64,000 nucleotides of DNA from IMG/VR virus record IMGVR_UViG_2882234885_000004. One strand, written 5' to 3'. Within the stretch, counting starts at the first letter, position 1. Every line of letters begins with the position of its first letter. A program made the translations under genes and the position numbers. Positions 3,052-61,064 of the stretch are shown in pieces. The DNA comes from an uncultured virus (IMG/VR IMGVR_UViG_2882234885_000004). Its lineage: Duplodnaviria; Heunggongvirae; Uroviricota; Caudoviricetes. The notes beneath the pieces were generated by a model. That model did no database searches. It saw only the letters and a program-made list of their open reading frames with translations, and was not told the origin of the DNA.

Positions 3052-3849
3052 TTGCGTATCCTGTCGATTGACTTTGACTACTTCGTAAATCCCACGGCGC
3101 TTCAGCGTGCGTTATATTTCCCCGATGGCGGCCGTGAAATGAGTGATACACTGAATACCTTCGTGTGGGCTGGAGCGTATGCGCACTCCAAAATCGCCAC
3201 GAAAAGGGCAGGCAACGAGAAGAACAGCCTGATGCAGGTCGAGCTGCTGAAAAAGCCTCTCCAGGCAATCCATAATATCGTCATGGCCCAGGGGGATATC
3301 TGCTATATGGTGGCAGACAGCCATGCCCATGCCTACGACTTTATCAATGAAAACTGGGATGGAAGTGTGATGGAATTATACAACGTGGACTTTCATCACG
3401 ACACCTTTGACGTCGGTGAGGGGGTCCACTGCGGAAATTGGTTGCGCTGGCTTCTGAATGATGGCACCGTAGATGCCGCATACTGGGTCAACCAGCCTGA
3501 TAGTGAATTGGCAGATAATATGACCCAGGTGATTTCACTCTCAGAGCTTCCCAAAACCGGCTATGACCTGGTATACATCTGCCGCTCCGGCTGGTGGACG
3601 CCGCCCCATATGGATGATGCGTTCATCAAATATCTTGCCCGGCCGCTGATTGCGAATAAGAACGGCTGGGAAGTAAAATATCAGAAGGGCATTATGGAGA
3701 GCCGTTACAACAATGAACTGAAAAACCTGGTAAAGCAGGAATGTATCTTCCGTGACAAATTTCCCAAAGATATGGTCCTGCAGGAGGACCTCTCGATGCC
3801 CAAAATTGACTCATCCGGTGGGAGATGGTATAATAATCCCAGTATTTGA
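3052..3849 (+). CDS. UPF0489-like protein
   Basis: ILSIDFDYF, NVDFHHD, HCGNW, ICRSGWWTPP; TTG start after GAGGTG (track start 3022 lies inside the promoter). Confidence 0.65.
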   Translation: MRILSIDFDYFVNPTALQRALYFPDGGREMSDTLNTFVWAGAYAHSKIATKRAGNEKNSLMQVELLKKPLQAIHNIVMAQGDICYMVADSHAHAYDFINENWDGSVMELYNVDFHHDTFDVGEGVHCGNWLRWLLNDGTVDAAYWVNQPDSELADNMTQVISLSELPKTGYDLVYICRSGWWTPPHMDDAFIKYLARPLIANKNGWEVKYQKGIMESRYNNELKNLVKQECIFRDKFPKDMVLQEDLSMPKIDSSGGRWYNNPSI

Positions 3850-3959
3850 GGAAGTATCATTGCAAAAATCGCATATGAAGATTCCAGCGGCTTTCGTTTT
3901 ATGAAAAACGGAAGCCGCTTTTCTATATACACAAACATCACCATCAAGGAGGAAGCAGT
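3806..3959 (+). promoter_or_regulatory. conserved operon leader L1
   Basis: TTGACT 3806, TGgTATAAT ending 3834, GAGGAAGTATC 3848-3858, hairpin 3886-3919 plus T-run, ATATACACAAAC, AAGGAGG. Confidence 0.85.
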
Positions 3960-4235
3960 ATGAGTAAAAGCAAGAACGAGGCTGACCAGCTCAGAGAAGG
4001 AACCCGTGTCCTCGTGCATGGAGAGGCTGCCTATCTGTGGATTCAAGACTATAATGGTCTGGTTTTCACGATGGGCACAGTCATACGGACACCGAAGCCG
4101 ACGGACAAAAAGGTTCTGGTCATTCTGGATATGCTGGGCGATAAGTGGGATGTGGTCACAACGGTACGCCGCACCGCACTCAAAATCGCCAGGCAGCCAT
4201 CCGCAAAGGAGGGCGACGCTCATGTTCACGCTTGA
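3960..4235 (+). CDS. hypothetical protein
   Basis: ORF with strong RBS directly after L1. Confidence 0.7.
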   Translation: MSKSKNEADQLREGTRVLVHGEAAYLWIQDYNGLVFTMGTVIRTPKPTDKKVLVILDMLGDKWDVVTTVRRTALKIARQPSAKEGDAHVHA

Positions 4236-4743
4236 GGATGTCCGGCGTGAATATCATCGTCTGGACGGGATTTGTGGAGTCGACACCTCACAAATTCCAG
4301 TAAAAATCTCAAAACGGGCCAGGGTGCAACGGGGGTGTTGCGTATGCTTCGGGCGTACCGTGAAGGAAATCCGGCTGTCGGATTTCATTTTCAGCGAACC
4401 TGAGGACCTGTTCTATGACACTGCGCGGCACGAATATGCCCATGCGGTAGTCAAACTGCGGCATCCGACAGAACGACATGTACACGATGAAGTCTGGAAA
4501 GCGGTTTGCCTGGAAGTGGGGTGTAATCCAAATCGGCTCACGTCTACCCCGACCGAAGTACGGAGCCAGCGCGAGGACAAGGCCAAATATGTGCTGACCT
4601 GTAAGCACTGCGGGGTCCAGTGGAAGTTCTATCGGAAAACCAAGTTGATAAAATACTTGCTGGCCGGAGGCACAAAATTAGCCTGCAATCGATGCGGTCA
4701 CACAGATTTTGAGTTGGTCCAGCAAGGCCCAAAAAGGAGATAA
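4222..4743 (+). CDS. SprT-like zinc metalloprotease with C-terminal Zn ribbon
   Basis: HEYAH, H...WK..C..VG, CKHC...CNRC; ATG 4222 after AAGGAGG. Confidence 0.85.
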   Translation: MFTLEDVRREYHRLDGICGVDTSQIPVKISKRARVQRGCCVCFGRTVKEIRLSDFIFSEPEDLFYDTARHEYAHAVVKLRHPTERHVHDEVWKAVCLEVGCNPNRLTSTPTEVRSQREDKAKYVLTCKHCGVQWKFYRKTKLIKYLLAGGTKLACNRCGHTDFELVQQGPKRR

Positions 4744-4749
4744 GTAAAA

Positions 4750-5559
4750 GTGGCAAAGTATCGGATAGGAGTCACGGAGGCCGGTGATGCCGGTATCGAC
4801 CTGAACTGGGTCCAAAAGATGGACACAGTGGACGGTGCAGTCGTTATCACAAAGCAAATTACACACGGTCTCCTTGACGCAGTGCTGGAGCACCAGAGAA
4901 AGCTCATTGTCCATGCTACTCTGACCGGCTATGGCGGGAGCGTCCTAGAACCTTGCGTTCCGACACCGGACGAGCAGTTCGAGGCGGTCCAGGCTCTAGT
5001 GGATAGCGGTTTCCCACAGGAGAAAATCGTTATCCGGGTGGACCCGCTCATCCCAACAGAGAAGGGCCTGGTCAAAGCGCTGCGGGTTATCGAGACCTGC
5101 ATGGATGACGGCTTCCGGCGGTATCGGGTCAGCGTCCTAGACATGTACAGGCATGTCAGGAACCGCTTCCGTGCAACAGGACTTCCGTTGCCCTATGGTG
5201 AAAACCAGTTTGCCAGCAGAGCGCAGTTGTCCGAAGCGGATGCAATGCTCCGCGAAGCCGCCGCATACTGGCAGGGGCTGGGCCAACAGGCAAGAGACCT
5301 GCGGATTGAGTCCTGCGCGGAACCATATCTGCGGTATCCTATCCGCTGCGGATGTGTCTCGGCCTATGACCTGGAACTACTGGGCCTGGATGCGAGCGAC
5401 GCCGACTCCATGGGCTACCAGCGGGAGCACTGCATGTGCTACTCCGGGAAGGTAGAACTACTGAGTCACAAACATCCGTGTTCGCATGGATGTCTCTATT
5501 GCTATTGGAGAGAATGTACGACAAATTTGAAAAAGGAGGGAAGCTCCAGTGGATTATAA
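4750..5559 (+). CDS. DUF1848-like (radical-SAM-related) protein
   Basis: TLTGYG..LEP.VP, IRVDPLI, IESCAE and C-terminal CSHGCLYCYW. Confidence 0.7.
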   Translation: MAKYRIGVTEAGDAGIDLNWVQKMDTVDGAVVITKQITHGLLDAVLEHQRKLIVHATLTGYGGSVLEPCVPTPDEQFEAVQALVDSGFPQEKIVIRVDPLIPTEKGLVKALRVIETCMDDGFRRYRVSVLDMYRHVRNRFRATGLPLPYGENQFASRAQLSEADAMLREAAAYWQGLGQQARDLRIESCAEPYLRYPIRCGCVSAYDLELLGLDASDADSMGYQREHCMCYSGKVELLSHKHPCSHGCLYCYWRECTTNLKKEGSSSGL

Positions 5560-8399: not shown

Positions 8400-8549
8400 T
8401 TGACCCGCTTTGGAATACGTGATATAATAATTTCACAAATCAAGGAAGTATACACACCACTTGTACATATTGGCAAAGACTCAAGACAGCCTATCCGAAA
8501 AACGGAGGGCTGTCTTTTTTTATATTTTTTTTGCAAAGGAGATTTTTAC
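8400..8549 (+). promoter_or_regulatory. conserved operon leader L2
   Basis: TTGACC 8400, TGaTATAAT ending 8428, AAGGAAGTAT 8442, hairpin AAGACAGCC..GGCTGTCTT 8483-8516 plus T-run, AAGGAG. Confidence 0.85.
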
Positions 8550-14790: not shown

Positions 14791-14819
14791 TTGACTATAA
14801 TATTGTTATATGGTATAAT
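14791..14819 (+). promoter_or_regulatory. sigma-A-type promoter of the sigma-factor gene (no leader hairpin)
   Basis: TTGACT-17-TATAAT with extended TG. Confidence 0.75.
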
Positions 14820-14848
14820 ATTGCTACTCTATGGGGGAGGGGATTACC

Positions 14849-16594: not shown

Positions 16595-16670
16595 CCGGGT
16601 GTAGCGCAGTTGGTAGCGCACATGGTTTGGGACCATGGGGCCGGGAGTTCGAACCTCCCCACTCGGACCA
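16595..16670 (+). tRNA. tRNA-Pro (TGG) with encoded CCA
   Basis: Acceptor CCGGGTG/CACTCGG, D-arm GCGC/GCGC, anticodon arm CATGG-TTTGGGA-CCATG, T-arm GGGAG-TTCGAAC-CTCCC. Confidence 0.95.
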
Positions 16671-16692: not shown

Positions 16693-17145
16693 ATGGACTT
16701 GTTGCGCATGGCCATCGCGGCAGTTGTAGCGATTGTGGTAGGAATTCCATTTGTCTTGGCTACTCGGCATATGAGACCCGCCGGGGAAAAGGAATGGCAA
16801 GACGCCGCCCGGGCCGGGCGTGTCACAACCGGCACACTCACAGACAAAGTGTTCCTGCCCCCGGATATGTCATCGCAGTACTCAAAAATGCGTGAAGTAC
16901 GATGGAAAGCCAGGTACGACTATACTGTGGATGGGGTGCAATATGCCTACTTCTGCGTCCTGAAAGCACCTGTACCGGAGCAAGTGGACTTGTATTACTC
17001 AGAAGGCCGACCAGACCGTGCAGCATTGCGGAGCGCGATGGTGCGTAAGCGAGGCCCGGCCTATACGTTTTGGTTTTTTGTCCCTGTCGCTATCTGGATG
17101 GTCGTCTATTGGATGCTCCCGATTTTTGGTATCTCAAAAGCATGA
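16693..17145 (+). CDS. hypothetical membrane protein (2 TM, DUF3592-like layout)
   Basis: Terminal TM helices flanking YDYTVDGVQY beta region. Confidence 0.6.
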   Translation: MDLLRMAIAAVVAIVVGIPFVLATRHMRPAGEKEWQDAARAGRVTTGTLTDKVFLPPDMSSQYSKMREVRWKARYDYTVDGVQYAYFCVLKAPVPEQVDLYYSEGRPDRAALRSAMVRKRGPAYTFWFFVPVAIWMVVYWMLPIFGISKA

Positions 17146-17165
17146 GCACCAGAAGTGTCCTTAAT

Positions 17166-17326
17166 TTGACGTTCAACCCTTCGAAATGGTACAATAAATG
17201 CGTCAAGTAAGGAAGTATCTATCTGAAACAGCATCATTCTAAAGGTTCAGACAGCACACCGATAACAGGTGTGCTGTCTTTTTTATATACACAAACACCA
17301 TCATTGATAAAAGGAGGCAAATCAAA
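17166..17326 (+). promoter_or_regulatory. conserved operon leader L3
   Basis: TTGACG 17166, TGgTACAAT ending 17195, AAGGAAGTATC 17209, perfect 12-bp hairpin 17249-17279 plus T-run, ATATACACAAAC, AAGGAGG. Confidence 0.9.
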
Positions 17327-17932
17327 ATGTATAAAGCGAAGGAAATTGAGGGAGTTGTTTACCGAGTAAAGCATTTGACAGGCGGATGGTTGGTCGAAGT
17401 GCCGGAAACGGAGGACCCCATTGAGGCCCTGGCCACGTTTGCGGCCGAAAAGTCAGTCAAAGGCTACATCATCACGTCTGTAACACGCATTTTTGACTGT
17501 TCGAAAGACACTCCACGCATGGCTGTTATCTCCACCAAAGAGTTCAAATCCGAAGTCAAGCGTCTGATGGATGAGAAAGCGTATTATGAGCAGGCAGAGA
17601 CTTACCCTGAGACCATTGAGGAACTGACTGCCCGTGCGGAGGCCGCCGGATGGAGTGTTGACCGAGACGAAGACGGTGAGCAAATTCGCCTGTCGTTTGG
17701 GCAGTCCACTCCGGCAGGCGAGGACTTCTGGTTTGACGCTTGCGGAGAGGACGTAGAAGAAGTTGTGGACAGTGTGAAGCGGTACGCTTTGGATTTCGAC
17801 TGTGATGAACACGTCAGAGAGGTCATGAACGGCCAGGGTGCGCCTGATTTGACGACGCTGGTCGAGGATGCCAAGGCTATTCAGGAGATGCTGGATGAGC
17901 TGGCAGGCAGCCTGATGCGCAAACTGATTTGA
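17327..17932 (+). CDS. hypothetical protein
   Basis: First gene after L3. Confidence 0.75.
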   Translation: MYKAKEIEGVVYRVKHLTGGWLVEVPETEDPIEALATFAAEKSVKGYIITSVTRIFDCSKDTPRMAVISTKEFKSEVKRLMDEKAYYEQAETYPETIEELTARAEAAGWSVDRDEDGEQIRLSFGQSTPAGEDFWFDACGEDVEEVVDSVKRYALDFDCDEHVREVMNGQGAPDLTTLVEDAKAIQEMLDELAGSLMRKLI

Positions 17933-17945
17933 CGGGGGAAGAATC

Positions 17946-18266
17946 ATGGAGAAGAAAAAGTTTGAGGTCTACACCCTCGATATGTTCCCTGATGGGGATG
18001 GCGGCTGGGTCGAGAACGAGCGCCAGAAAATCGGCACTATCGAAATCCAAAGCAGTGAGCAGGCATTCCCGGAGGCTATCCTGAATGCCCTGCGCAATCT
18101 CACCTGCAGTGATATCGCGGGTAGAGAGCACCACGTGCTGAACACTACGGACCGGCGGCGCATCTACATCGAGGACTTCTATGGAACCGGCGAGTGGTGG
18201 GAGGTCGGCACGAAGAAGGGCAATAAGCCCTTCCTTGGGCTGCAACTGGTGAAGGAGGCAGAGTGA
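17946..18266 (+). CDS. hypothetical protein
   Basis: Packed ORF with RBS. Confidence 0.7.
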   Translation: MEKKKFEVYTLDMFPDGDGGWVENERQKIGTIEIQSSEQAFPEAILNALRNLTCSDIAGREHHVLNTTDRRRIYIEDFYGTGEWWEVGTKKGNKPFLGLQLVKEAE

Positions 18267-18267
18267 A

Positions 18268-18519
18268 TTGGCAACCTGCAAAATGAATGTGGTCCACCGC
18301 GACAGCCATAGCGCCCCGGAATGCACAAATTGCGGGCATCGCTTCGATACGGATTATGCCAAGAATCCGTATGCTGAGATGTGCCGTATCGCAAAGGGGA
18401 AATTTGCGTATTGCCCAGTCTGTGGAGCCAAGTATGTTGGCTGTCAGATTGAGGGCGTGGACTTCGATAAGTGTGACCCCTACCAGACCGACTGGATTAT
18501 GCAGGGCCTCAAAGACTGA
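18268..18519 (+). CDS. Zn-ribbon hypothetical protein
   Basis: CTNCG...YCPVCGAK; AAGGAGG RBS. Confidence 0.65.
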   Translation: MATCKMNVVHRDSHSAPECTNCGHRFDTDYAKNPYAEMCRIAKGKFAYCPVCGAKYVGCQIEGVDFDKCDPYQTDWIMQGLKD

Positions 18520-18543
18520 ATTTTCTACAAGGAGGACAATTTT

Positions 18544-18798
18544 ATGGATAAGCAGAAAGAGCTTGATTTTATGCTCCATTTCGCCAGAGAGGCGTTTCTG
18601 GATGAGGAAGTGTGCGCCGACCAGCTCAGAAGCCTGTGGACGGCGTATTGCCTGCATCATGGCCTCGACGCAGACACCAAGGCGTATGACGATGACCTCA
18701 TGGAGGTTTGGAAGGTCGTTGCTGAGGAAGAAGCAGATACGGCAAACTGGAGCTCCTTCGGCAGCTTCGGCACATTTATGTGCGCCGAGCTGGTGTGA
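18544..18798 (+). CDS. hypothetical protein
   Basis: AAGGAGG RBS. Confidence 0.7.
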   Translation: MDKQKELDFMLHFAREAFLDEEVCADQLRSLWTAYCLHHGLDADTKAYDDDLMEVWKVVAEEEADTANWSSFGSFGTFMCAELV

Positions 18799-18815
18799 GA
18801 GAGGAGTGAACTTGT

Positions 18816-19349
18816 ATGGGACGCGGCAACTGCTGCACCTTTGGGAAACACGAAGGTCTGTTCTATGTGGACAACGATTATCTGGATGTCTTCTCCCGAT
18901 ATATTGAGGAAGATGACGCATGGGAGTCGCGCCTGAAAGGCGAACTGGATTTCAATGAACTCACTGACCCTGCGTGGGGATACGATGAGACTGAGAGCCA
19001 GTACAACCTGGATGCCGCCATCTCGAACTTCAAAACCCGTATCATGGCCCGCTTCAAAAGTTTCCGGCCCTGCGATACCTGGGTGAAGTATCGAGAGGCC
19101 CACGCGATTCTGGAGAACTCCCTGTTCTATATCGCTGTCGAGGACAACGAGTGGAGTCGGGCGTTCGAACTCATCCAGAAGGAGGACCCGTACGACGACC
19201 ACTTGTCCGGTCTCCAGGCAAAGCACTGCCGGAGATATCTGGACGGTATCCGGGACGCCCTGTTTGAGGACTTTGAGTCCCTGGGCATTTATGGGTGTGC
19301 GTGGACGCATGGAACCATCCATCGAGAGGATTTTCGTAAGAGTGCTTAG
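18816..19349 (+). CDS. hypothetical protein
   Basis: GAGGAG RBS. Confidence 0.7.
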   Translation: MGRGNCCTFGKHEGLFYVDNDYLDVFSRYIEEDDAWESRLKGELDFNELTDPAWGYDETESQYNLDAAISNFKTRIMARFKSFRPCDTWVKYREAHAILENSLFYIAVEDNEWSRAFELIQKEDPYDDHLSGLQAKHCRRYLDGIRDALFEDFESLGIYGCAWTHGTIHREDFRKSA

Positions 19350-19385
19350 GGACTTAGGTGCTTAAGCACCAATATACCTAAGCAC
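19346..19385. repeat. phased 8-bp repeat array (YTAAGYRC family)
   Basis: TTAGGGAC TTAGGTGC TTAAGCAC CAATATAC CTAAGCAC. Confidence 0.7.
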
Positions 19386-19454
19386 CGATGAGCAGCGGGG
19401 CCCCGTGGATTTATCCATGGGGCCTTGCGCTCTAAAAAAGGAGGTCAAAATTTC

Positions 19455-20036
19455 ATGTTAGAAATCCGAAAAATGTTGGTAGGCACTGTCGAGCTTGGCA
19501 GTCTATTCGTTGGCCGTCAGGCCCAGCAAGTCCCACAGAACCCTATTGCAAAGACTGGAGATATCCCTATCTATTCTGGAGGCCAAATCACTATTCGAAA
19601 TACAGTCCCCGGGAAGGCCATTACCTGGGTTGCGGCGGGCGATATCCTGATTGCTGACAGATGCCTGCTCAGTGATGTGACCTGGAAGGAACTTGACGCT
19701 GCCGGACTCATCGCAGGCCGTGAGGTCTGCATTGACGGCCACAAGTATCTGTGCCGTGCCCCCAAAGTGGGATACGACAGCGACCGCCAGAATGAGTGGG
19801 ATAAGGCCCTCGCCATTATGGGTGCTGACAACAGCCTCTGGCATTGGAAATCTATGTATTTCTGGGGGGCAGATGGGCTTACTACCGTCACACGGATTGC
19901 CCGGGGTTGTATCACGGCATACACCAGAGATTTTGCGGATGAGGATTCGAGATACTTCAACGTCGGGTTCCGGCCCTGCCTGATTCCCCTGGAGGACGAC
20001 TTCGCTTCCTACTTAGTGGGAGGTGAAGCGCAGTGA
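19455..20036 (+). CDS. hypothetical protein, C-terminus resembling C-type-lectin/FGE-like fold
   Basis: NEWD, RIARG...R...VGFRPCL pattern. Confidence 0.6.
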   Translation: MLEIRKMLVGTVELGSLFVGRQAQQVPQNPIAKTGDIPIYSGGQITIRNTVPGKAITWVAAGDILIADRCLLSDVTWKELDAAGLIAGREVCIDGHKYLCRAPKVGYDSDRQNEWDKALAIMGADNSLWHWKSMYFWGADGLTTVTRIARGCITAYTRDFADEDSRYFNVGFRPCLIPLEDDFASYLVGGEAQ

Positions 20037-20719
20037 GCTATTACAGCATCGCAATCGATGGCCCTGTCGCCGCCGGGAAGACTACGCAGGCCAAGGCTCT
20101 GGCCAGTCGGCTGGGGTTTGTCTATGTGGATACCGGCGCGATGTACCGGGCATTTGCGGTCCATAAGCTGTGGCTGGAAAAAGAGATAGGCGAAGAAATC
20201 GAAGTTGAGCGGGCGCTCAGAACCTTCGATTTGGATATTGTCCAGGATGAGAATGGTCAACACATTCTGATTTGGGGCAAGGACGTCACTTCGCAGTTAA
20301 GAACGCCCGAGGTGTCCATGGTTGCGTCCAAAGCATCCGCACATTCGGCTGTTCGGGAGGCCCTCCTGAAAATCCAACAGGTTATGCCTTCAATGAACAA
20401 TGTCGTCATGGAGGGACGGGATATCGGGACGGTCGTCATTCCGAACGCCACACTCAAGGTCTTTTTGACGGCCAAAGCAGAGGTCCGGGCACAGCGGCGC
20501 TGGAAAGAGCAGTGTTCGCATGGCGTGACGGATTCTTATGAGCAAACCTTGGCCCTTCTGCAAAAGCGGGATTACGATGACTCTCACCGGGAAATCGCGC
20601 CGTTGGAGCAGGCTGAGGACGCTGTGCTGGTTGATTGCACGGAGATGACAATTCAGGAAACGACCAATGTGATTCTGGCTCTTTGGAATTCAAAGGCCAA
20701 AAGGGGAGGTATGAATTGA
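20033..20719 (+). CDS. cmk: cytidylate kinase
   Basis: IAIDGPVAAGKTT, DTGAMYR, VMEGRDIGTVV.P.A.LKVFLTA, RD..DS.R..APL. Confidence 0.95.
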   Translation: MSYYSIAIDGPVAAGKTTQAKALASRLGFVYVDTGAMYRAFAVHKLWLEKEIGEEIEVERALRTFDLDIVQDENGQHILIWGKDVTSQLRTPEVSMVASKASAHSAVREALLKIQQVMPSMNNVVMEGRDIGTVVIPNATLKVFLTAKAEVRAQRRWKEQCSHGVTDSYEQTLALLQKRDYDDSHREIAPLEQAEDAVLVDCTEMTIQETTNVILALWNSKAKRGGMN

Positions 20720-21603
20720 TGTTGAATGGATTGTATTGTCTGATTGGTAAGAGCGGGACCGGGAAGTCTACGGTCATGCAGGCACTGCACGACACCTACG
20801 GTTACACGATTGCCCAGAGCTATACGGACCGGCCGAAGCGGACCCCGGATGAGCAGGGACATGAATTTCTCAGCCCAGCCGAGTTTGATGCGCTGAACGG
20901 CTTGATTCTGCCGCGCAGCAGTCAGGATGGCCGCTATGGGATGACCGAGGAAATGCTCGATAAGAGCGAACTCATCGTCCTGGACTATCTGGGCACGCAG
21001 GAGCTTCTGCAGTCCTACACCAAGCGCCCCGTCCATGTGATTGGCCTACATGCTGACACACATACCCGTATTGTACGGATTGATGAGAGGGGAAACACCT
21101 TTCAGGAGCGGCGAAAGCGCCTCAGTGCGGATGAGCATGAGTTTTATTCGATGAACGACCTCTGTGACATCGTTGTGCCCAACCGGGACCTGCAGCAGAC
21201 GGTCGGCATCATCAAGAACTTCATCGACTTCTGCGAGGAAACGGCTTGGGTTTGCGCAGACGACGACTGCCTTCAGTTCCGCCGACGGGTTGGTGTAGAC
21301 AGTAACAAGATGCCGGTCTACGAACTGGTCCAGGTCAACAGTTACGGCGATGACCTGTTTCATGTGGCGCATGGGCGTGTATATTTCAGCGATGTCGACG
21401 AGGAGGAGCTTGAATCGCTGTTCAGCGAGTATGGTTGGTCGTATTACAGCCTGCTAGGCGAGGACGGCTGGGGTATTGTTGCGGAAGCCGTTTTTGAAAA
21501 TAGCGCAACAGAATACGATACCGCAGATGAGTATACAACCTTTGAGGCAGCCGCACGGGCCCTGGGGGAAATTATCGGCCGCGATATTTCATCGTACCTG
21601 TGA
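20719..21603 (+). CDS. gmk: guanylate-kinase-like domain fused to an unknown C-terminal domain
   Basis: LIGKSGTGKST, SYTDRPKR, HEFLS; about 120 aa acidic extension. Confidence 0.75.
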   Translation: MLNGLYCLIGKSGTGKSTVMQALHDTYGYTIAQSYTDRPKRTPDEQGHEFLSPAEFDALNGLILPRSSQDGRYGMTEEMLDKSELIVLDYLGTQELLQSYTKRPVHVIGLHADTHTRIVRIDERGNTFQERRKRLSADEHEFYSMNDLCDIVVPNRDLQQTVGIIKNFIDFCEETAWVCADDDCLQFRRRVGVDSNKMPVYELVQVNSYGDDLFHVAHGRVYFSDVDEEELESLFSEYGWSYYSLLGEDGWGIVAEAVFENSATEYDTADEYTTFEAAARALGEIIGRDISSYL

Positions 21604-22199
21604 GGCGCTGTATGGATGACGATATCTTGCTGTGGCACGTTTCGTTTGACATAGAGCGGCCTCTGATACGCACCTATGTTCCTCTGGTTCCGAAAAATCC
21701 AATGCCCGGCGAGGACACCACGATTCCCAGAATCTGTTTTGCTCCGTCCATTGAGGACTGCCTCAACGCGATGGTCGCAGACCGGGTAGAGCGTGGCCTT
21801 GAAGATGGAAGATTCCTGGGATTTCCGTTCCGGGTAGCCAAGGATGACCCGTTCCTTAAAACGCCAGATGACATCGGAGATATGGTCCCGGACGCCTATT
21901 GGACACGGGAACACTGGTATTTAAAACCCGTCACACTGGCTGGATATCTGATGCAAGTGGACGACTTCGAGGATTACGAATTCTACGACGCTTACGAGTC
22001 CCATCGGCCGCTGATTTACAAAATCCTGCTGGAGAACGGTGTTTCATCAAAGGATTTGGCCGAGTTCGATGGCTGGAGCACGACAGAAGTGCTCATGAGT
22101 ATCCCAACCTGGCTTGGCTATGAAATCGCTCTGCGGCTTAACATCCATCAGCTCCATGCGTTCGAGTGTCTGAATTATCGGTCAATAGAAAGTGCATAA
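21600..22199 (+). CDS. hypothetical protein
   Basis: WHVS...P.VP...GED.TIPRICFAPSIEDCL motif seen in phage hypotheticals. Confidence 0.7.
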   Translation: MRRCMDDDILLWHVSFDIERPLIRTYVPLVPKNPMPGEDTTIPRICFAPSIEDCLNAMVADRVERGLEDGRFLGFPFRVAKDDPFLKTPDDIGDMVPDAYWTREHWYLKPVTLAGYLMQVDDFEDYEFYDAYESHRPLIYKILLENGVSSKDLAEFDGWSTTEVLMSIPTWLGYEIALRLNIHQLHAFECLNYRSIESA

Positions 22200-22219
22200 G
22201 TGCTTAGGAGTCTAAGCGC
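22196..22219. repeat. phased 8-bp repeat array
   Basis: ATAAGTGC TTAGGAGT CTAAGCGC. Confidence 0.5.
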
Positions 22220-22232
22220 TTTTGCGGAAGGA

Positions 22233-22290
22233 AAGGAGGTTGGGCGGCTTCTCTGTCACATATGTGATGGAGAGGCCGCTCTGTTCTATG
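22233..22290 (+). promoter_or_regulatory. split RBS: SD, 18-bp hairpin, ATG
   Basis: AAGGAGG 22233-22239, hairpin 22242-22281, TGTTCT, ATG 22288. Confidence 0.65.
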
Positions 22291-22929
22291 CAGTATGCAG
22301 AAAATTTAAACGCGAACAGAGAATTCGCAGCGCAGTTTGCTCAGGCCCTTGTTTCTTGGCGCAAGCGCAAGGGAATGACGCAAAGAGCTCTAGCTCAAAA
22401 AGCTGGAATTGCAAACGCCACACTTCATCGGTATGAGAGTGGAACTCTGTGCCCGTCACCTGAAATCGTTCAGAAACTTGCGGATGCATTAGATGTTCAG
22501 CATGAGGACCTTTTAAACCTGGATAATCTTCTGAAAAGTGAAACGGTCCCGGAACGCATTAAGCGCATGAGACGGCTTCGTGGGATTACTCAGGAGGAAT
22601 TGGGCAAAATGGTTGGAACTACGAAGTCCACAATTTCCATATGTGAATCCGGGCGGAACGAATTGAGAAGTACAACGCTGGCCCGGATTGCCGAAGCGCT
22701 TGGCGTGTCGTACGAGTACCTTGTCCTGGGAAAACCTCAAGATGGTGACTTTTTGCAGGAAGGATTAACCCCTTTCAAAAAAGTCCCCGTCGTTCTAGCT
22801 GCGGTCGAAGAGTTCGGTGACGACCATCGGCTGGTCTTCCGCACACTCACGATTCGGGTTCCCAATGATGGTTTAGACTGGCACGTTATGGGAGAAGTAA
22901 AAACAGATTGCCAACAAAACGAGGAGTGA
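22288..22929 (+). CDS. tandem XRE-family HTH transcriptional regulator
   Basis: Two HTH_3 units (MTQRALAQKAGI..ATLHRYESG; ITQEELGKMVG...ISICESG); start inferred from split RBS. Confidence 0.88.
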   Translation: MQYAENLNANREFAAQFAQALVSWRKRKGMTQRALAQKAGIANATLHRYESGTLCPSPEIVQKLADALDVQHEDLLNLDNLLKSETVPERIKRMRRLRGITQEELGKMVGTTKSTISICESGRNELRSTTLARIAEALGVSYEYLVLGKPQDGDFLQEGLTPFKKVPVVLAAVEEFGDDHRLVFRTLTIRVPNDGLDWHVMGEVKTDCQQNEE

Positions 22930-22995
22930 GCGCTGCTTCTAGCGAGGACGGCAATGGCTGGCAATTTAATATCTGAACACATTCTATCTGTCTAT

Positions 22996-23027
22996 CCGCC
23001 CCAGGTTGTTCTGGGGCGGCTTTTTTT
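22996..23027 (+). terminator. intrinsic terminator
   Basis: CCGCCCCAG/CTGGGGCGG then C and T7. Confidence 0.8.
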
Positions 23028-23056
23028 ACAATGTCACCATCCTACCTCACTTATAC

Positions 23057-23088
23057 TTAAGCACCGGAGCGTCTAAGCACTTAAGTGC
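23057..23088. repeat. phased 8-bp repeat array
   Basis: TTAAGCAC CGGAGCGT CTAAGCAC TTAAGTGC. Confidence 0.7.
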
Positions 23089-23121
23089 CGTTGCTGGTAT
23101 TGCCTTTTGTGTACAGCAGTT

Positions 23122-23275
23122 TTGACTTCTATCGTAATAGATGGTAGGATATTACTATCAAACAAGGAAGTATCTCATTAAACAAACATCAATCTATCAG
23201 TTTCAAGCAGCTAGGTCTTTAAACGGGCCTAGCTGCTTTTTATATATACACAAACATTTTTCAAGGAGGACGACT
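23122..23275 (+). promoter_or_regulatory. conserved operon leader L4
   Basis: TTGACT 23122, TGgTAGGAT ending 23150, AAGGAAGTATC 23164, hairpin 23205-23238 plus T-run, ATATACACAAAC, AAGGAGG. Confidence 0.9.
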
Positions 23276-23806
23276 ATGAAGTACAAATTCTTTCAAGGCG
23301 GAGTCACTGAGGTGCCGGTTGAGCACCTGATTGAGGACTACCAGAACCTAGCCCAGACGAAAGCAACTCTGAGCAGATGCATCCAGGCATATGCGCGGAA
23401 ACTGCCCGAGGCTCTTGCCTACGATGAGCGGGCCAAAGAGTCTCTGGCAGCGCTCCAGGATGCCAGTGAGACGATTTCCACGGTTATGGATTGTCTTGCG
23501 GACAGCATCGACAGCCACACCACTGCCCCGGAAGGACTGAAGTTCCAACCGAGCGTCACATCTGTGATTGCGATGGGGTGTAAAACCGGCATCATTGCCC
23601 GCGAAGATGGAAGCGATATTCGCTGCGCTGGCGGTATGGATGTGTCCACAGTCTACCCTGGGTGTACCGAGCGGTGCCCGTACAAAAATAAGTGCGAGCA
23701 GGAACTTTGCCGCATCCAACTGGAAACCGGAGCTTTTTATACCGGGGACAGCAGGGAGTCCGATGAACTGCTGGACAGCATCGAGCGGTATCCAGAGAAG
23801 GAGTGA
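23276..23806 (+). CDS. hypothetical protein
   Basis: ATG after L4 RBS. Confidence 0.75.
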   Translation: MKYKFFQGGVTEVPVEHLIEDYQNLAQTKATLSRCIQAYARKLPEALAYDERAKESLAALQDASETISTVMDCLADSIDSHTTAPEGLKFQPSVTSVIAMGCKTGIIAREDGSDIRCAGGMDVSTVYPGCTERCPYKNKCEQELCRIQLETGAFYTGDSRESDELLDSIERYPEKE

Positions 23807-23812
23807 TGACCT

Positions 23813-23977
23813 GTGCGTTTCACTCCGTCTGAGGTAAATCGAGCGATGCACCGCCTGCACTTGCGGGACACTGCGGACTGCCGCGCCAAGGCTGTGGCTA
23901 TTCTGCAAGCCTGGGACCGAGGCATCGGTGACGTAGATGACGTTATCGACGCCTATGAAGCTGCGCAAGCATATTGA
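23813..23977 (+). CDS. small hypothetical protein (54 aa, not in track)
   Basis: GTG after AAGGAG; exactly fills the gap. Confidence 0.45.
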   Translation: MRFTPSEVNRAMHRLHLRDTADCRAKAVAILQAWDRGIGDVDDVIDAYEAAQAY

Positions 23978-23990
23978 GGAAGGAGTTTTT

Positions 23991-24152
23991 ATGAAAGCAA
24001 CAAATATCGAATGGGACGTCGATTGTCCTGAAGACCTGGAGACATTGCCCAAAGAGGTCGTGATTCCTGACGGCATGAAAGACGAGGATGAAATTTCCGA
24101 CTATCTGTCGGACCTGACAGGCTTCTGCCACAAAGGTTTCTATTTGGAGTAA
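23991..24152 (+). CDS. small acidic hypothetical protein
   Basis: MKATNIEWDVD...ISDYLSDLTGFCHKGF; AAGGAG RBS. Confidence 0.7.
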   Translation: MKATNIEWDVDCPEDLETLPKEVVIPDGMKDEDEISDYLSDLTGFCHKGFYLE

Positions 24153-24161
24153 TTTTCTTGA

Positions 24162-24226
24162 AAGGAGGGCGGCTGTGCATCGGGTGCAGGCATCATCTGC
24201 ACCGATGCACAGCCTATTTTACCATG
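24162..24226 (+). promoter_or_regulatory. split RBS: SD, about 19-bp hairpin, ATG
   Basis: AAGGAGG 24162-24168, hairpin 24171-24214, TATTTTACC, ATG 24224. Confidence 0.6.
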
Positions 24227-24748
24227 GATGTTATTTTGAATCTGCGCGAGATGGACATTGAGTCCGAGTTTGATGCTTCTGGGAACCCCACGCCGGAGTT
24301 TCTCAGCAACATCATCCAGGCCATCATTCAGGAATATGGGGCCCGGGCATCTGACTCCGAGGCGTTTATTTACCCTGAACTCACAGCCAGCAACTGTGTG
24401 TTCGGCTTCAAGGAGCCGGTCCGACTGCTTCAGCGTGTTTCCGAGTGGAACGGAAGCATTCGGGAACAGTTCCTGCGGTGCGTAGATGCGGTCTGCAAGA
24501 TTTCGACGTATGGCCAACTGCCTACCACAGACCAACTGCCGCGTTCAAAGAGCCCTGAGATGTATTCCATGCTTGGAGCCACAAGCGAAATGAACGATGA
24601 CTGGTACGACTACGCCGACCATGCGATTTTCCTGGAGGATGCCAACGGCGACCGCACGTTCCGCTGCGTCCTACAGCCGTTCGACCTGAGCAATATTCAG
24701 CGTGACCCGGCGGAGTATGCCATCGTCACCGTTTTCCCAAAGAGTTGA
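24224..24748 (+). CDS. hypothetical protein
   Basis: In frame with track ORF 24158; start inferred from split RBS. Confidence 0.7.
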   Translation: MDVILNLREMDIESEFDASGNPTPEFLSNIIQAIIQEYGARASDSEAFIYPELTASNCVFGFKEPVRLLQRVSEWNGSIREQFLRCVDAVCKISTYGQLPTTDQLPRSKSPEMYSMLGATSEMNDDWYDYADHAIFLEDANGDRTFRCVLQPFDLSNIQRDPAEYAIVTVFPKS

Positions 24749-24764
24749 GAGAGGAGAGATTATC

Positions 24765-24834
24765 ATGTTCGCTGTCATCAAGAAGAACGAGGGTCTGGCC
24801 AAAGTCATTGATGCCCCTTCCCTCAAGGCGGCCT
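24765..24834 (+). pseudogene. 5' part of a 30-aa ORF interrupted by the IscB element (3' part 26497-26519)
   Basis: GAGGAG RBS; joining the flanks gives MFAVIKKNEGLAKVIDAPSLKAAYDADAKE*. Confidence 0.5.
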
Positions 24835-25140
24835 GTCAGTCACCCCACGAATAAATTCGGGGGCTTGAAAAGCCTTGACTGACTACCCTAAGTGCTTCGG
24901 GCACTACGTTATCCGAGAATGCCAGCCGGGCCACAATAGTGGTCTGGCTGGCACATAGGCACCGGCGGGCGTGATATCCGAACCTGCCGCACTGCGGCGC
25001 ATGGTTAAACAGTCCTGATGGGTAGGGGCAGTGCTGTGCGCGGAGAAACCTCGGAATAACATTGGGGACGGATACCTGACGGGCTTCGGCCCGGGCAGTT
25101 TTCTGCGTAGTAGCTGCCAAAATGTGAGAAAGAAAGGAGG
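24835..25140 (+). ncRNA. IscB omegaRNA scaffold (3' end approximate)
   Basis: About 300-nt structured non-coding region directly 5' of iscB; GTCAGTCA/TGACTGAC stem. Confidence 0.8.
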
Positions 25141-25149
25141 CGCACTGAC

Positions 25150-27625: not shown

Positions 27626-27778
27626 TTGACGCCCCTTCCGAAAAATGATACCATACTTACAGTAGTTTAAGGGAGTATCACATACTGAAACCATATTGCT
27701 TTAGCAATCAGCCAGCATCCTCAAACTTGAGGGTGCTGGCTTTTTATATACACAAAACGAAGAAGGAGCGATAATTGC
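27626..27778 (+). promoter_or_regulatory. conserved operon leader L5
   Basis: TTGACG 27626, TGaTACCAT ending 27654, AAGGGAGTATC 27669, hairpin 27710-27741 plus T-run, ATATACACAAAAC, AAGGAG. Confidence 0.88.
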
Positions 27779-29841: not shown

Positions 29842-30008
29842 TTGACCTTGACCAGCTTAAAATGGTATAATTCTTCTATCAAACAAGGAAGTATCTATCT
29901 ACCAACAAATCGAAATATCAAACTCACAGTCAGTCCTTTTACGATTCTGTAAGGGGACTGGCTGTTTTTTATATATCAAATTTATATACATGAACGGAGG
30001 AAAATAAA
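29842..30008 (+). promoter_or_regulatory. conserved operon leader L6
   Basis: TTGACC 29842, TGgTATAAT ending 29871, AAGGAAGTATC 29885, hairpin 29926-29965 plus T-run, GGAGG. Confidence 0.88.
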
Positions 30009-32768: not shown

Positions 32769-32980
32769 TTGACACTCTATCTTGAAAAGTGGTATAATGA
32801 AACCAAATTTAAGGAAGTATCAGTCAGTTATCACAAAACATTATCTTCGAAAGACGACGCAGCTATCTATAACGATGGCTGCGTCTTTTTTTGAAACCTC
32901 CGGGCACAGACCAGACTTTTAGCCTGATTGGTGTCCGTTTATATACACAAACATTCAAAACTTTCAAGGAGGAATCACAA
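32769..32980 (+). promoter_or_regulatory. conserved operon leader L7 (with extra hairpin insert)
   Basis: TTGACA 32769, TGgTATAAT ending 32798, AAGGAAGTATC 32811, hairpin 32856-32885 plus T7, about 45-nt insert, ATATACACAAAC, AAGGAGG. Confidence 0.88.
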
Positions 32981-34465: not shown

Positions 34466-34622
34466 TTGACTTACATCTCAGAACGTGGTAGCATGAATCT
34501 ATACAGCAAGGAAGTATCTATCAAACAACATACCATACCAAATTCAGCAGTCATTCTTTCGAACAAAGAGTGGCTGCTTTTTTATATATACACAAACGAG
34601 GTTATGAAAGGAGTCTTTGACC
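34466..34622 (+). promoter_or_regulatory. conserved operon leader L8
   Basis: TTGACT 34466, TGgTAGCAT ending 34494, AAGGAAGTATC 34508, hairpin 34546-34578 plus T-run, ATATACACAAAC, AAGGAG. Confidence 0.9.
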
Positions 34623-36972: not shown

Positions 36973-36984
36973 GGGGGGAGAAAC

Positions 36985-37671: not shown

Positions 37672-37703
37672 ATAAGCACTTAGGTGCTTGGGTGTTTAAG
37701 TGC
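37672..37703. repeat. phased 8-bp repeat array
   Basis: ATAAGCAC TTAGGTGC TTGGGTGT TTAAGTGC. Confidence 0.7.
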
Positions 37704-37736
37704 TTGCATGGCATGAGCGATAGGGAGCCGGCCGTT

Positions 37737-37893
37737 TTGACTTTACAGGCGATAGATGGTAGGATATTACTATCAAACGAGGAAGTATAGTAACGCATAA
37801 GCATTGTTTTATAAGTCTCAAGCAGTTAGGTTCATTTTATGAGCCTGACTGCTTTTTCATATATACACAAACATTTTCAAAGGAGACGATTTT
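37737..37893 (+). promoter_or_regulatory. conserved operon leader L9
   Basis: TTGACT 37737, TGgTAGGAT ending 37765, GAGGAAGTAT 37779, hairpin 37820-37854 plus T-run, ATATACACAAAC, AAGGAG. Confidence 0.9.
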
Positions 37894-44053: not shown

Positions 44054-44215
44054 TTGACTTAAAAAATAAAACATGGTAAGATATTTCCATCAAATAAGGA
44101 AGTATCGAATTTAAACCTCAAAATATATTCTAAGGCTCAAGACAGTGTATCCGATTCTCGGGTGTGCTGTCTTTTTTTATATATACAACAAATTTTTTAA
44201 AGGAGAAATGAACCA
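44054..44215 (+). promoter_or_regulatory. conserved operon leader L10
   Basis: TTGACT 44054, TGgTAAGAT ending 44082, AAGGAAGTATC 44096, hairpin 44139-44173 plus T-run, ATATATACAAC, AAGGAG. Confidence 0.9.
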
Positions 44216-50955: not shown

Positions 50956-50984
50956 TTGACTAATATAATTTTAAATGGTAAAAT
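50956..50984 (+). promoter_or_regulatory. sigma-A-type promoter (no leader hairpin)
   Basis: TTGACT-17-TAAAAT with extended TG. Confidence 0.7.
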
Positions 50985-51015
50985 ATATACAACAAGATAT
51001 TGGGAGGTATATCTA

Positions 51016-55137: not shown

Positions 55138-55292
55138 TTGACCAATAAATTTTCACGTGGTATAATAAGAACCAAACCAAGGAAGTATCTGAAAAATTCT
55201 ATCATTATGATTCAAGCAGTCATTCTTCGCAATTCATGCGGGAGTGGCTGCTTTTTATATATACACAAACATTTTTAAAAGGAGCGATAACT
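55138..55292 (+). promoter_or_regulatory. conserved operon leader L11
   Basis: TTGACC 55138, TGgTATAAT ending 55166, AAGGAAGTATC 55179, hairpin 55214-55253 plus T-run, ATATACACAAAC, AAGGAG. Confidence 0.9.
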
Positions 55293-57010: not shown

Positions 57011-57304
57011 GTGGATACAATCAGTTCCTATGAGAGTCAGGTAAAAAACAGTATCTTTCAGGTGTTCAACGGTGTCGAGACGGAAGTGGAGGCTATGGTA
57101 TTTGCCAATTATGCCATGCGGCAGTTGAAAGAGTCGCAGAACCCCAAATTTTCCAGGGAGACATCCACTGCTTTTATCAATCTCTTGGCAGAGATGCTCC
57201 ACCGAGAGATGCACAGCATCTATGGAAGCCAGGTCTTTGACTATTCGCTGGATACAGCAGTGACGGACGCCAAGATTTGCCTTCAATCTGAAAGAATGGT
57301 ATAA
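57011..57304 (+). CDS. hypothetical protein
   Basis: GTG after GAGGGG. Confidence 0.55.
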   Translation: MDTISSYESQVKNSIFQVFNGVETEVEAMVFANYAMRQLKESQNPKFSRETSTAFINLLAEMLHREMHSIYGSQVFDYSLDTAVTDAKICLQSERMV

Positions 57305-57431
57305 TTTACTCAAATTAAGGAAGTATCGAAATCACAGCCAATCTCATAACACTTCAAGCAGCTATATCCTTTGGGGTATAGCTGCTTTTTATATATATAC
57401 AAACAATCTTTACAAAAACGGAGGAATCACT
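57277..57431 (+). promoter_or_regulatory. conserved operon leader L12
   Basis: TTGCCT 57277, TGgTATAAT ending 57305, AAGGAAGTATC 57317, hairpin 57356-57387 plus T-run, ATATATACAAAC, GGAGG. Confidence 0.88.
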
Positions 57432-59980: not shown

Positions 59981-59984
59981 CCAG

Positions 59985-60021
59985 AAAAACCCGGCGTTGT
60001 TCAAAACAACGTCGGGTTTTT
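59985..60021 (+). terminator. intrinsic terminator
   Basis: AAAAACCCGGCGTTGT/ACAACGTCGGGTTTTT. Confidence 0.75.
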
Positions 60022-60080
60022 GCTTATTTATGCGAAAAATGGTACAATACTTACACAAAACACCATGAGGAGAGGATTCT

Positions 60081-60908
60081 ATGAGCAGTCTCGGCCATTC
60101 GGCCTTTCATGCCGGGATAAGCGGCCTGCGTGCCCGCTCGGCGCTGACCAGCGCATACCAGCAGGGCGACGTGAAAAAGGTAAAGCGGTTCTTCAAAACA
60201 GTGGATATTGGGGGCAAGGTTGGCGGCCTCTTTATGGCTCTCATCCTTGTGGCGCTCTCCATATCTATGTTTATGACGGCATTCAGCAGTCAGACTGATG
60301 GCAGCCGCACCGCGCCTTCTATCCCCGCAGAGGCCGGTGCATTGCCGGTCACGGCAGTATACGACGATACAGGCTTCGTGGCGGATTATCATATTGAGCA
60401 TCTGCCAGACTCCTTTGAACATATCGCGGATGACTACCACATCCAGACCGCTGTCTATTCTTCTTCCGCCCCGGCACACGACGTTTACGATTCCATTTTC
60501 ACAGATGAGAATGGCGTTGTCCTCTACATTGAGGAGCACGAGGACTATGGAACGCTGACCTATTACTGGGGCGACAATCTGGACAGTATCTTCACAGCAG
60601 AGAATATCGAGATTCTGGACTCAGCTCAGACCTACTTGGACGCCCGCACGCATGACCGGGCAAGCAACGTGGTGTCTGACTTCAGAACAGGATTGAACCA
60701 GCTTTTTAACGGTCCTGAACACAAATCTTTATCCGCTCCGTTCGAGTTCGCCACAGCGATTTTCTGGCTCCTGATGGCCCCAGTCTTCTATCTACTGGTC
60801 AATTTCCTAATCTGTGGTTTAGTCGGAGTGCCGTTCTCAAAGAAGAAGCGCAAAGCATTCCTAGACCGGCTGGTCTCCAGCATGGAGCAGAATCCAGCTC
60901 CTACCTAA
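60081..60908 (+). CDS. membrane protein (2 TM with extracellular domain)
   Basis: Two hydrophobic helices; own promoter TTGCTT-17-TACAAT at 60020-60048. Confidence 0.7.
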   Translation: MSSLGHSAFHAGISGLRARSALTSAYQQGDVKKVKRFFKTVDIGGKVGGLFMALILVALSISMFMTAFSSQTDGSRTAPSIPAEAGALPVTAVYDDTGFVADYHIEHLPDSFEHIADDYHIQTAVYSSSAPAHDVYDSIFTDENGVVLYIEEHEDYGTLTYYWGDNLDSIFTAENIEILDSAQTYLDARTHDRASNVVSDFRTGLNQLFNGPEHKSLSAPFEFATAIFWLLMAPVFYLLVNFLICGLVGVPFSKKKRKAFLDRLVSSMEQNPAPT

Positions 60909-60909
60909 T

Positions 60910-61064
60910 TTGACCATCTACCATGCAGATGGTACAATAATAGTATCAATCAAGGGAGTATCTACTACAATCATCATATTATTTCAAGGCAGCAATCTCG
61001 TTACTGAGGTTGCTGTCTTTTTCAATATATACACAAACGATTTATCAAAGGAGGTTTTTGTACG
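60910..61064 (+). promoter_or_regulatory. conserved operon leader L13
   Basis: TTGACC 60910, TGgTACAAT ending 60938, AAGGGAGTATC 60952, hairpin 60986-61019 plus T-run, ATATACACAAAC, AAGGAGG. Confidence 0.9.

What the first reader, a model, noticed from the sequence alone, without database searches (positions are those of the whole stretch)
3806..61064. Thirteen dispersed operon leaders with identical architecture: candidate element-wide attenuation/antitermination regulon
Seen: copies start at 3806, 8400, 17166, 23122, 27626, 29842, 32769, 34466, 37737, 44054, 55138, 57277 and 60910. Each has TTGAC (TTGCC once), a 17-18 nt spacer and an extended -10 (TGnTAnnAT). The box RAGGRAGTAT(C) follows, with its GG 14-17 nt after the -10 (16 in 9 of 13). 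Then come a 23-34 nt linker, a roughly 12-18 bp hairpin with T-run, a TATA(TA)CAC-type motif, an SD and the first gene of a run of small hypothetical genes. Stems differ in sequence but keep pairing, and their non-Watson-Crick pairs are mostly G-U only on the + strand (e.g. AGCAGTCATTCTTT/AAAGAGTGGCTGCT), pointing to selection on a single-stranded + strand structure. Promoters of the sigma, alpha-CTD, TA, VirD4-like and HipA genes lack this leader. Established: a promoter followed by an intrinsic terminator ahead of the first gene is the attenuator layout, and lambda N/nut and Q show box-dependent antitermination. Inference: most accessory genes are off by default and are switched on together when one factor recognises the box at about +8 to +18, perhaps after entry into a new host. 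I do not recognise it as a named riboswitch or T-box.
Basis: partly seen in the sequence, partly recalled or inferred. Interest (0 to 1): 0.92.

Follow-up and report, generated by a model that had tools for sequence, protein, structure and literature searches.

The report
Thirty terminator-gated promoters, giant mobile element
A 250-kb mobile element in a bacterial chromosome places the same short box and a predicted stop signal right behind about 30 of its promoters, which likely keeps most of its accessory and DNA-handling genes off until one still unidentified factor lets transcription through.

Summary
All 13 leaders are real, with the stated geometry (13 boxes, 0.64 expected). They are 13 of 30 on a ~252-kb conjugative element that interrupts spoIVA; none lies elsewhere in the genome. 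28 of 30 box promoters have a predicted terminator, against 0 of 39 boxless promoters of the same element. Stems, box and U-tract change slowly between close relatives. No cis antiterminator fold exists in 26 of 28, and there is no Rfam match. Relatives down to 32-39% protein identity keep the layout and a GAAGT-like core 13-17 nt behind the -10. Best reading (0.5): a default-off regulon opened by a trans-acting antiterminator loaded at the box. Termination, read-through, the trigger and the factor are all untested. One lead is a conserved 73-aa protein whose model weakly resembles eL20, T7 Gp2 and RNAP epsilon. The RNA data available were uninformative.

The parts
3806..3959 (+). Leader 1: -35 at 3806, -10 at 3829, box 3848-3858, hairpin 3887-3918, U-tract, SD; first gene at 3960 (run includes SprT-like and UvrD genes)
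8400..8549 (+). Leader 2: box 8442-8452, hairpin 8485-8514; tail lacks CAC; first gene at 8550
17166..17326 (+). Leader 3: box 17209-17219, hairpin 17250-17278; first gene at 17327
23122..23275 (+). Leader 4: box 23164-23174, hairpin 23207-23236; first gene at 23276
27626..27778 (+). Leader 5: box 27669-27679 (AGGG variant), hairpin 27711-27740; first gene at 27779
29842..30008 (+). Leader 6: box 29885-29895, hairpin 29927-29964; first gene at 30009
32769..32980 (+). Leader 7: box 32811-32821, hairpin 32856-32885, then a second hairpin before TATATACAC; first gene at 32981
34466..34622 (+). Leader 8: box 34508-34518, hairpin 34547-34577; first gene at 34623
37737..37893 (+). Leader 9: box 37779-37789, hairpin 37822-37852; first gene at 37894
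44054..44215 (+). Leader 10: box 44096-44106, hairpin 44141-44171; first gene at 44216
55138..55292 (+). Leader 11: box 55179-55189, hairpin 55216-55251; first gene at 55293
57277..57431 (+). Leader 12 (TTGCCT -35): box 57317-57327, hairpin 57358-57385; first gene at 57432
60910..61064 (+). Leader 13: box 60952-60962 (AGGG variant), hairpin 60988-61017; first gene at 61065 is a C5 cytosine methyltransferase
14791..14821 (+). Contrast: boxless promoter of the second class (AT-rich conserved spacer, no hairpin) ahead of the sigma-70-type gene
50956..50986 (+). Contrast: boxless second-class promoter ahead of the VirD4-like gene

Best explanation
The 13 repeats are part of a set of 30 promoter-box-hairpin leaders on a giant integrated conjugative element, which likely act as default-off attenuators that one trans-acting factor, predicted to be recruited by the box, would open together. 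Shown in sequence: the promoter, the fixed-position box, the hairpin with U-tract and ATATA, their tight coupling, and their conservation. Inferred: RNA polymerase starts about 7 nt behind the -10 and stops at the U-tract after roughly 80-95 nt. Inferred: because the RNA has no rival fold, read-through needs a protein. Inferred: because the box keeps its distance from the promoter and not from the terminator, the factor loads on the early transcription complex, as a Q- or N-type antiterminator would, through the box as DNA or as the first RNA to emerge. Inferred: this switches on the DNA-handling and accessory operons when the element excises or arrives in a new cell, while transfer, replication-initiation and surface genes run from a separate boxless promoter class. 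The factor is unidentified; a 73-aa protein (C20 314069-314290) is a weak lead.
For: Box and terminator go together: 28 of 30 box promoters against 0 of 39 boxless ones; the two misses show a hairpin and T-run by eye. The leader terminators have similar stems to, and richer U-tracts than, 50 gene-end terminators of the element (median -20.0 vs -20.4 kcal/mol; 6.2 vs 5.3 T in the first 8 nt), and carry ATATA in 23 of 28 vs 0 of 50. Substitutions per site in 26 orthologous comparisons: stem 0.021, U+ATATA 0.030, box 0.035, against linker 0.079, loop 0.090, promoter spacer 0.144. Stem positions hold several pair types across copies. Blocking the terminator costs 9-20 kcal/mol (median 13.7) in 26 of 28. 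Box offset from the -10 is 11-14 nt (13 in 20 of 30), while box-to-hairpin distance varies, down to zero in relative L179. G401 keeps the box 14 nt from a different promoter. Across more distant relatives the core is at offset 13-17 in 19 of 28 promoters with a terminator vs 8 of 64 without (motif chosen after seeing the data). In the orthologous leader of the SSB-like gene the box is paired in an 8-bp stem in both G000 and G401 with changed letters, which hints at an RNA-level role.
Against: There is no transcript evidence at all: the four runs laid are assembled contigs with DNA-like flat cover. No NusG/LoaP-, BglG- or Q-type antiterminator domain was found among 294 element and flank proteins in Pfam or among 30 conserved ones in PHROGs and NCBIfam. 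The 73-aa lead has only Z 5-6 to eL20/LX and Z 3.2-3.6 to RNAP epsilon and T7 Gp2, no Foldseek hit at E<=0.001, 774 related clusters, and a homologue in a phage record where I found no such leaders. In G000, G401 and G402 it lies behind a full terminator itself. A -10-like pause element at +1 is not enriched in this element (3 of 30 vs 5 of 39). A box at +8 to +18 is also where repressor operators sit. In G401, 5 of 16 box promoters miss the -10 kcal/mol terminator cut-off, 3 with no terminator found. Relative L182 and most G403 leaders lack the core at that offset.
Confidence: 0.5

Rival explanations
1. The box is a repressor operator just downstream of the start site (as with Reg576 or MrpR), and the terminator is a separate constant damper that lets a fraction through, so the genes are induced by loss of the repressor.
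For: Dispersed operators at strong sigma-A promoters of accessory genes are established: p576 (PMC6294495, passages) and SPbeta (PMC10516654, passages). The box is tied to promoter position. The element has LexA-like and HTH genes.
Against: The terminators look strong, not leaky. The box is a single non-palindromic 10-mer. It does not explain why the box never occurs without a hairpin, nor the conserved stem-base sequence and ATATA. The LexA-like protein had no match in G401, which shares the box.
Confidence: 0.2
2. Reverse polarity: the hairpins terminate well only when an element protein binds the box (Nun-like). The genes are then off in the established host and transiently on in a new host that lacks the protein.
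For: It gives zygotic induction without first making an activator. G401 U-tracts have only 4 U. The 73-aa gene is first behind a leader in G000, G401 and G402, as a negative-feedback gene would be.
Against: G000 leader terminators match or exceed ordinary terminators in stem energy and U content, so they should work unaided. SSB-like and YqaJ operons also keep their leaders, so first position is not special.
Confidence: 0.12
3. The roughly 90-nt RNAs are themselves the product (decoys for a box-binding protein), or the hairpin is a processing and stabilising element of a read-through mRNA.
For: A few copies have no SD or gene directly behind them (C20 334375 minus strand, 289385, 464229). In p576 a 5' UTR stem-loop probably stabilises mRNA (PMC6294495, passage). 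The 73-aa gene's leaders in L066, L180 and L193 keep box and hairpin but lose the U-run.
Against: 22 of 24 typical copies have an SD 21-34 nt after the U-run start. The U-tract is conserved. Linker and upper stem differ too much between copies for one RNA product.
Confidence: 0.12
4. The repeats are mainly recombination cassettes for gene shuffling (PeSL-like), spread by duplication, with no shared regulator.
For: Several gene gains or losses relative to G405 and L147 end 0-43 nt upstream of a leader's promoter. One leader has swapped its promoter half in G405. PeSLs do this in T4-like phages (PMC4122927, parts 1-2).
Against: In PeSLs the stem-loop lies upstream of the promoter; here it lies between promoter and gene. 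Most breakpoints are far from leaders. Motif-specific purifying selection is seen.
Confidence: 0.06

Closest known systems
Lambdoid Q / N antitermination (lambda PR')
   Same: Strong promoter, short leader, terminator ahead of the genes, factor loading near the promoter (PMC9191641 passages; PMC6606751 listing only; N/nut details recalled).
   Different: 30 dispersed loading sites instead of one to three; clostridial conjugative element; no Q, N or NusG-like domain found; no +1 pause-element enrichment here.
p576 establishment regulon (EGeRS2/Reg576) and SPbeta SPBRE/MrpR
   Same: One motif repeated at dispersed strong promoters of accessory genes on a Gram-positive mobile element.
   Different: Those are repressor operators; no conserved promoter-proximal terminator appeared in the passages I read. 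Here each box comes with a terminator.
pLS20 EGeRS1
   Same: Repeated structured leader ahead of establishment operons that blocks read-through; mechanism unknown (PMC8708921 passages).
   Different: EGeRS1 is 400-750 bp, GC-rich, multi-branched and has no constitutive promoter; these leaders are about 150 bp with a near-consensus promoter and one hairpin.
conAn, canT (Tn916) and zipper-type cATT attenuator
   Same: Termination control in Gram-positive conjugative elements (abstracts and section lists only).
   Different: Those use one long cis RNA at the conjugation operon; here the conjugation genes are the ones without the leader, and no rival fold exists.
PeSL elements of T4-like phages
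   Same: Repeated promoter plus stem-loop units ahead of variable small genes, near indels.
   Different: The PeSL stem-loop is upstream of the promoter and there is no transcribed box.

Membership tests
Rfam cis-regulatory RNA (riboswitch, T-box, named motif) | Match to a covariance model at gathering score | tested here: not met
   Window: only HEARO and a tRNA. Seven relative loci: only HEARO. E-value scan of 27400-38200: 8 sub-threshold hits, none covering a leader's box or hairpin.
Cis RNA-switch attenuator (riboswitch, T-box, zipper type) | Mutually exclusive antiterminator fold | tested here: not met
   Loss of 9-20 kcal/mol when the terminator is forbidden in 26 of 28; two atypical copies (C20 334521, 336236) do have a rival hairpin at no cost.
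Antisense-RNA-controlled attenuator | Element-encoded RNA complementary to the box | tested here: inconclusive
   A pattern allowing G.U found only the boxes' own opposite strands and six coding-region hits; no CRISPR spacer matches the box in full. Shorter or split pairing is not excluded.
Intrinsic terminator | Stable hairpin directly followed by a U-rich tract on the RNA strand | tested here: met
   28 of 30; G.T over A.C 23:2; U content above that of gene-end terminators.
Intrinsic terminator | RNA 3' ends at the U-tract | not testable with these tools
   Only assembled contigs were served.
Q-type antitermination | -10-like sigma-dependent pause element at about +1 to +6 | tested here: inconclusive
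   Not enriched in this element (3 of 30 vs 5 of 39); TATAAT/TACTAT/TATGAT are present there in G402, G404 and some other relatives. The box core RAGTAT has A2, A5, T6 of a -10 hexamer but lies further downstream.
Q-type or N-type antitermination | Element-encoded antiterminator of a known family | tested here: inconclusive
   None recognised by Pfam, PHROGs or NCBIfam; most element proteins have no family, and about a dozen ORFs spanning locus borders or very short were not scanned.
Reg576/MrpR-type repressor regulon | Repressor binds the repeated motif as DNA | not testable with these tools
   Needs a binding assay. The box differs from the dual TTATCCC operator of Reg576.
EGeRS1 | 400-750 bp, no constitutive promoter | tested here: not met
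   About 150 bp with near-consensus -35 and extended -10.
PeSL | Stem-loop upstream of the promoter | tested here: not met
   The hairpin lies 60-75 nt downstream of the -10.

The most novel reading that the evidence does not exclude
A clade of giant clostridial conjugative elements runs a phage-like global switch by antitermination: one small protein with the eL20/T7 Gp2/RNAP-epsilon fold (the 73-aa gene found in all five elements compared) loads onto RNA polymerase at a fixed-position GAAGT box and opens about 30 separate promoter-proximal terminators, roughly 170 genes, with feedback on its own leader.
Probability: 0.15. Interest if true: 0.88.

Novelty: new variant of a known kind. Interest (0 to 1): 0.72.

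Why it matters
Dispersed accessory-gene regulons on conjugative elements are known to use repressors, single-strand promoters or the unexplained EGeRS1; termination control is known at single conjugation operons. A regulon of 30 parallel box-gated terminators would be another solution. It marks out, by sequence alone, the inducible gene set (about 170 mostly unknown genes, a pool for anti-defence and establishment functions) in a little-studied family of 150-250 kb elements. It also offers a compact 150-bp switch whose factor can be found with simple reporters.

Tried and rejected
RNA evidence: 9 RNA-labelled runs were listed. Three of them and one run of unrecorded type were laid on 17000-36900; all are contigs, some 14-46 kb long with flat depth, so they say nothing on ends or levels. 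The exact motif outside the element gave 14 single hits in GTDB contigs with no leader behind them, single hits in 11 of 400 family genomes, and multiple copies only in one near-identical 147-kb record. The sigma factor as bait found only that record and unrelated sigma factors. CRISPR-guided control: the element has Cas5/Cas8c/Cas7 and an array, but no spacer matches the box beyond 8 letters. A conserved trans RNA: non-coding DNA shared with four relatives is tRNAs, HEARO and the leaders. One search's constrained fold was set wrongly (it blocked all pairing of the arm bases) and was redone. The MAFFT alignment of 24 leaders was out of register in the stems, so pairs were counted anchored on the U-run; there 4 atypical of 28 copies were dropped, and the 212 of 216 paired cells follow partly from how the stems were defined. 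The S1-domain protein also occurs in two distant plasmids. More distant plasmids (150 of 248 kb of OY725878.1, 50 of 142 kb of NZ_AP023417.1, 50 of 186 kb of NC_014390.1) showed no multi-copy layout. The 73-aa protein has no Pfam or PDB sequence match and no named Atlas family at 0.9; binding to RNA polymerase was not modelled. Literature searches found no description of this leader; one search covered the box letters and listed 15 of 26 hits, all unrelated by title. The library lacks most subscription papers, and I read no supplements, where motif catalogues outside Rfam could hold it. Three look-ups in earlier findings were empty.
Full report
Context. The window is G000:C20:399810-463809. 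It lies in a region of about 51% GC in a genome of about 60%. The region starts after the first 150 codons of spoIVA at about C20 237.3 kb and ends with a large serine recombinase, after which the rest of a spoIVA-like frame resumes at about 489.6 kb (the identity of the 3' part is my reading of the translation). It encodes a type IV secretion set (two VirB2, VirB4-like, VirD4, PrgI, CHAP lysozyme), a Rep3 protein with iteron-like repeats, ligase, topoisomerase, RecD2, YqaJ, ERF, two sigma factors and two alpha-CTD proteins. It is thus a ~252-kb integrated conjugative element. A relative, G402, is a 192-kb record with direct terminal repeats, consistent with a circular form.

Observation. All 13 leaders and their geometry are confirmed. 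Weight matrices trained on them found 30 distinct promoter-plus-box sites (31 rows) inside the element and none in the rest of the 3.1-Mb genome. The same scan revealed a second repeated promoter class with a conserved AT-rich spacer and no box, ahead of the transfer, rep, cas, HU, sigma and surface-protein genes.

The key control. A hairpin of -15 kcal/mol or better with a T-run follows 28 of 30 box promoters and 0 of 39 boxless ones. The run starts at about +73 to +91 (one at +54), the start site being inferred. These hairpins are as stable as 50 gene-end terminators of the element, have more T, and alone carry ATATA (23 of 28 vs 0 of 50; a recalled B. subtilis scoring rule passes 28 of 28 vs 40 of 50). 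Wobble pairs favour the RNA strand 23:2. In 26 non-independent orthologous comparisons the stem, box, -35, -10 and U+ATATA change two- to seven-fold more slowly than linker, loop and spacer; of 13 changed stem pairs 8 stayed paired and 5 broke, and none changed on both sides.

No cis switch. Forbidding the terminator costs 9-20 kcal/mol in 26 of 28 leaders; two atypical copies near rep have a rival hairpin at no cost. The linker is G-poor (0.11). No antisense partner, CRISPR guide or Rfam family was found. If these operons are ever expressed at a useful level, something in trans must act; that is inference.

Family. Relatives found through the YqaJ protein at 97, 59, 46, 39 and 32-37% identity were scanned. 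G401 (59%) has 15 such leaders among 16 rows, with the same box 14 nt behind a different promoter preceded by GGTTC repeats. G402 (39%) has 10 among 12 rows, with a small extra hairpin. G404, L172, L176, L177, L187, L179, L065 and L183 keep promoter, hairpin, T-run and usually ATATA. A GAAGT-like core sits 13-17 nt behind the -10 in 19 of 28 promoters with a terminator and 8 of 64 without (14 of 22 vs 8 of 48 without G402); I defined the motif after seeing these sequences, and several of the 8 look like variant leaders. None of the 39 boxless promoters of G000 has it. L182 and most G403 leaders do not fit, and parts of three more distant plasmids lack the layout. The box keeps its distance from the promoter while its distance to the hairpin runs from 0 to about 60 nt or more, which points to action on the early transcription complex.

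What is gated. By nearest upstream promoter, about 170 genes (median 145 aa) follow leaders and 103 (median 210 aa) follow boxless promoters (weak internal promoters would lower the first number). The gated set includes RecD2, YqaJ, ERF, a primase-like protein, ligase, UvrD, a C5 methylase and a protein I read as SSB from its acidic tail (no Pfam hit). Such genes are typical of establishment or activation programmes (PMC8708921, abstract and passages). In the SSB-like gene's leader the box is paired in an 8-bp stem in both G000 and G401, with different letters.

The factor. The sigma factor is shared only with G401 among the full elements, and the alpha-CTD proteins with none. A 73-aa protein is present in all five elements. 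It is first behind a leader in G000, G401 and G402, and in L066, L180 and L193 it has its own promoter with box and hairpin but no U-run. Its model (pLDDT 88) is closest to ribosomal eL20/LX (Z 5-6, rmsd 3.5-5.6), with weaker likeness to T7 Gp2 (Z 3.4-3.6) and B. subtilis RNAP epsilon (Z 3.2). These scores are in the range of common small folds, the family is wide (774 clusters), and a phage homologue has no such leader. It is a lead only.

Comparison. It works like lambdoid promoter-proximal antitermination spread over many operons, and it occupies the role of the Reg576, EGeRS1 and SPBRE regulons (PMC6294495 passages; PMC10516654 passages). It fails membership of EGeRS1, PeSL (PMC4122927 parts 1-2) and cis-switch attenuators. 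conAn, canT and cATT (abstracts) act at conjugation operons, which here lack the leader. A genome-wide survey of premature terminators lists attenuator clusters on insertion sequences and in regulons (PMC2965389 passages); I did not see its supplementary tables. Nine searches found no account of this leader.

Verdict. A real, non-random, clade-wide regulatory architecture; a new variant of termination-based control. Confidence 0.5 in trans-acting antitermination, 0.2 repressor plus damper, 0.12 factor-dependent termination, 0.12 short RNA or processing, 0.06 shuffling only. Interest 0.72.

Noticed in passing
G000:C20 ~237300-489600 (L001-L011 and the window): The whole element interrupts spoIVA and ends in a large serine recombinase, so sporulation would likely need its excision; att sites were not resolved.
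   Followed up: partly
L002:1314-7430 (C20 249314-255430): Type I-C Cas5, Cas8c and Cas7 with an array of roughly 35 degenerate repeats, but no Cas3, Cas1 or Cas2 hit in the element; no convincing self-targets.
   Followed up: partly
window 14791, 50956, 3005 (+), 34408 (-) and about 30 more sites in the element: A second repeated promoter class with a conserved AT-rich spacer (consensus near WATTGACTAATWTAnTnnTATATGGTATAATAT) ahead of core genes; the spacer may be an operator of its own regulon.
   Followed up: partly
L003:16510-19472, L010:16931-19313, L011:240-2384; window 16595-16667: 22 tRNA genes in clusters near both ends of the element, plus one in the window; relatives have similar clusters.
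   Followed up: partly
window 24835-26430: HEARO RNA with an IscB-type gene (RRXRR + HNH) inserted in a leader-controlled operon; absent from G405 and from some laid contigs.
   Followed up: partly
C20 334521 and 336236 (L006): Two atypical leaders near rep with overlapping rival hairpins, a true two-state layout; the second precedes a YhgA-like gene.
   Followed up: partly
C20 334375, minus strand (L006): Promoter, box and terminator with no gene behind it, followed by a boxless promoter: a possible decoy RNA.
   Followed up: no
C20 339600-339950 (L006): Iteron-like GGGGGTAAkTTTTTGTCG repeats beside the Rep3 gene; AAGCACC/TAAGCAC repeats are scattered near several promoters.
   Followed up: no
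G401:C1 element (L241-L248): GGTTCTYAGGTTC repeats sit upstream of box promoters that lack a good -35, and also form an array near rep and occur upstream of the parA-like gene: possibly a partition or Rep protein acting as co-regulator.
   Followed up: no
L008:600-1970: An S1-domain protein in the transfer operon is conserved in G401, G402 and G403; a possible RNA-binding factor.
   Followed up: partly
window 22222-22929: A double-HTH gene just upstream of leader 4 is missing in G405 and in two laid contig sets, with homology resuming at the promoter.
   Followed up: partly
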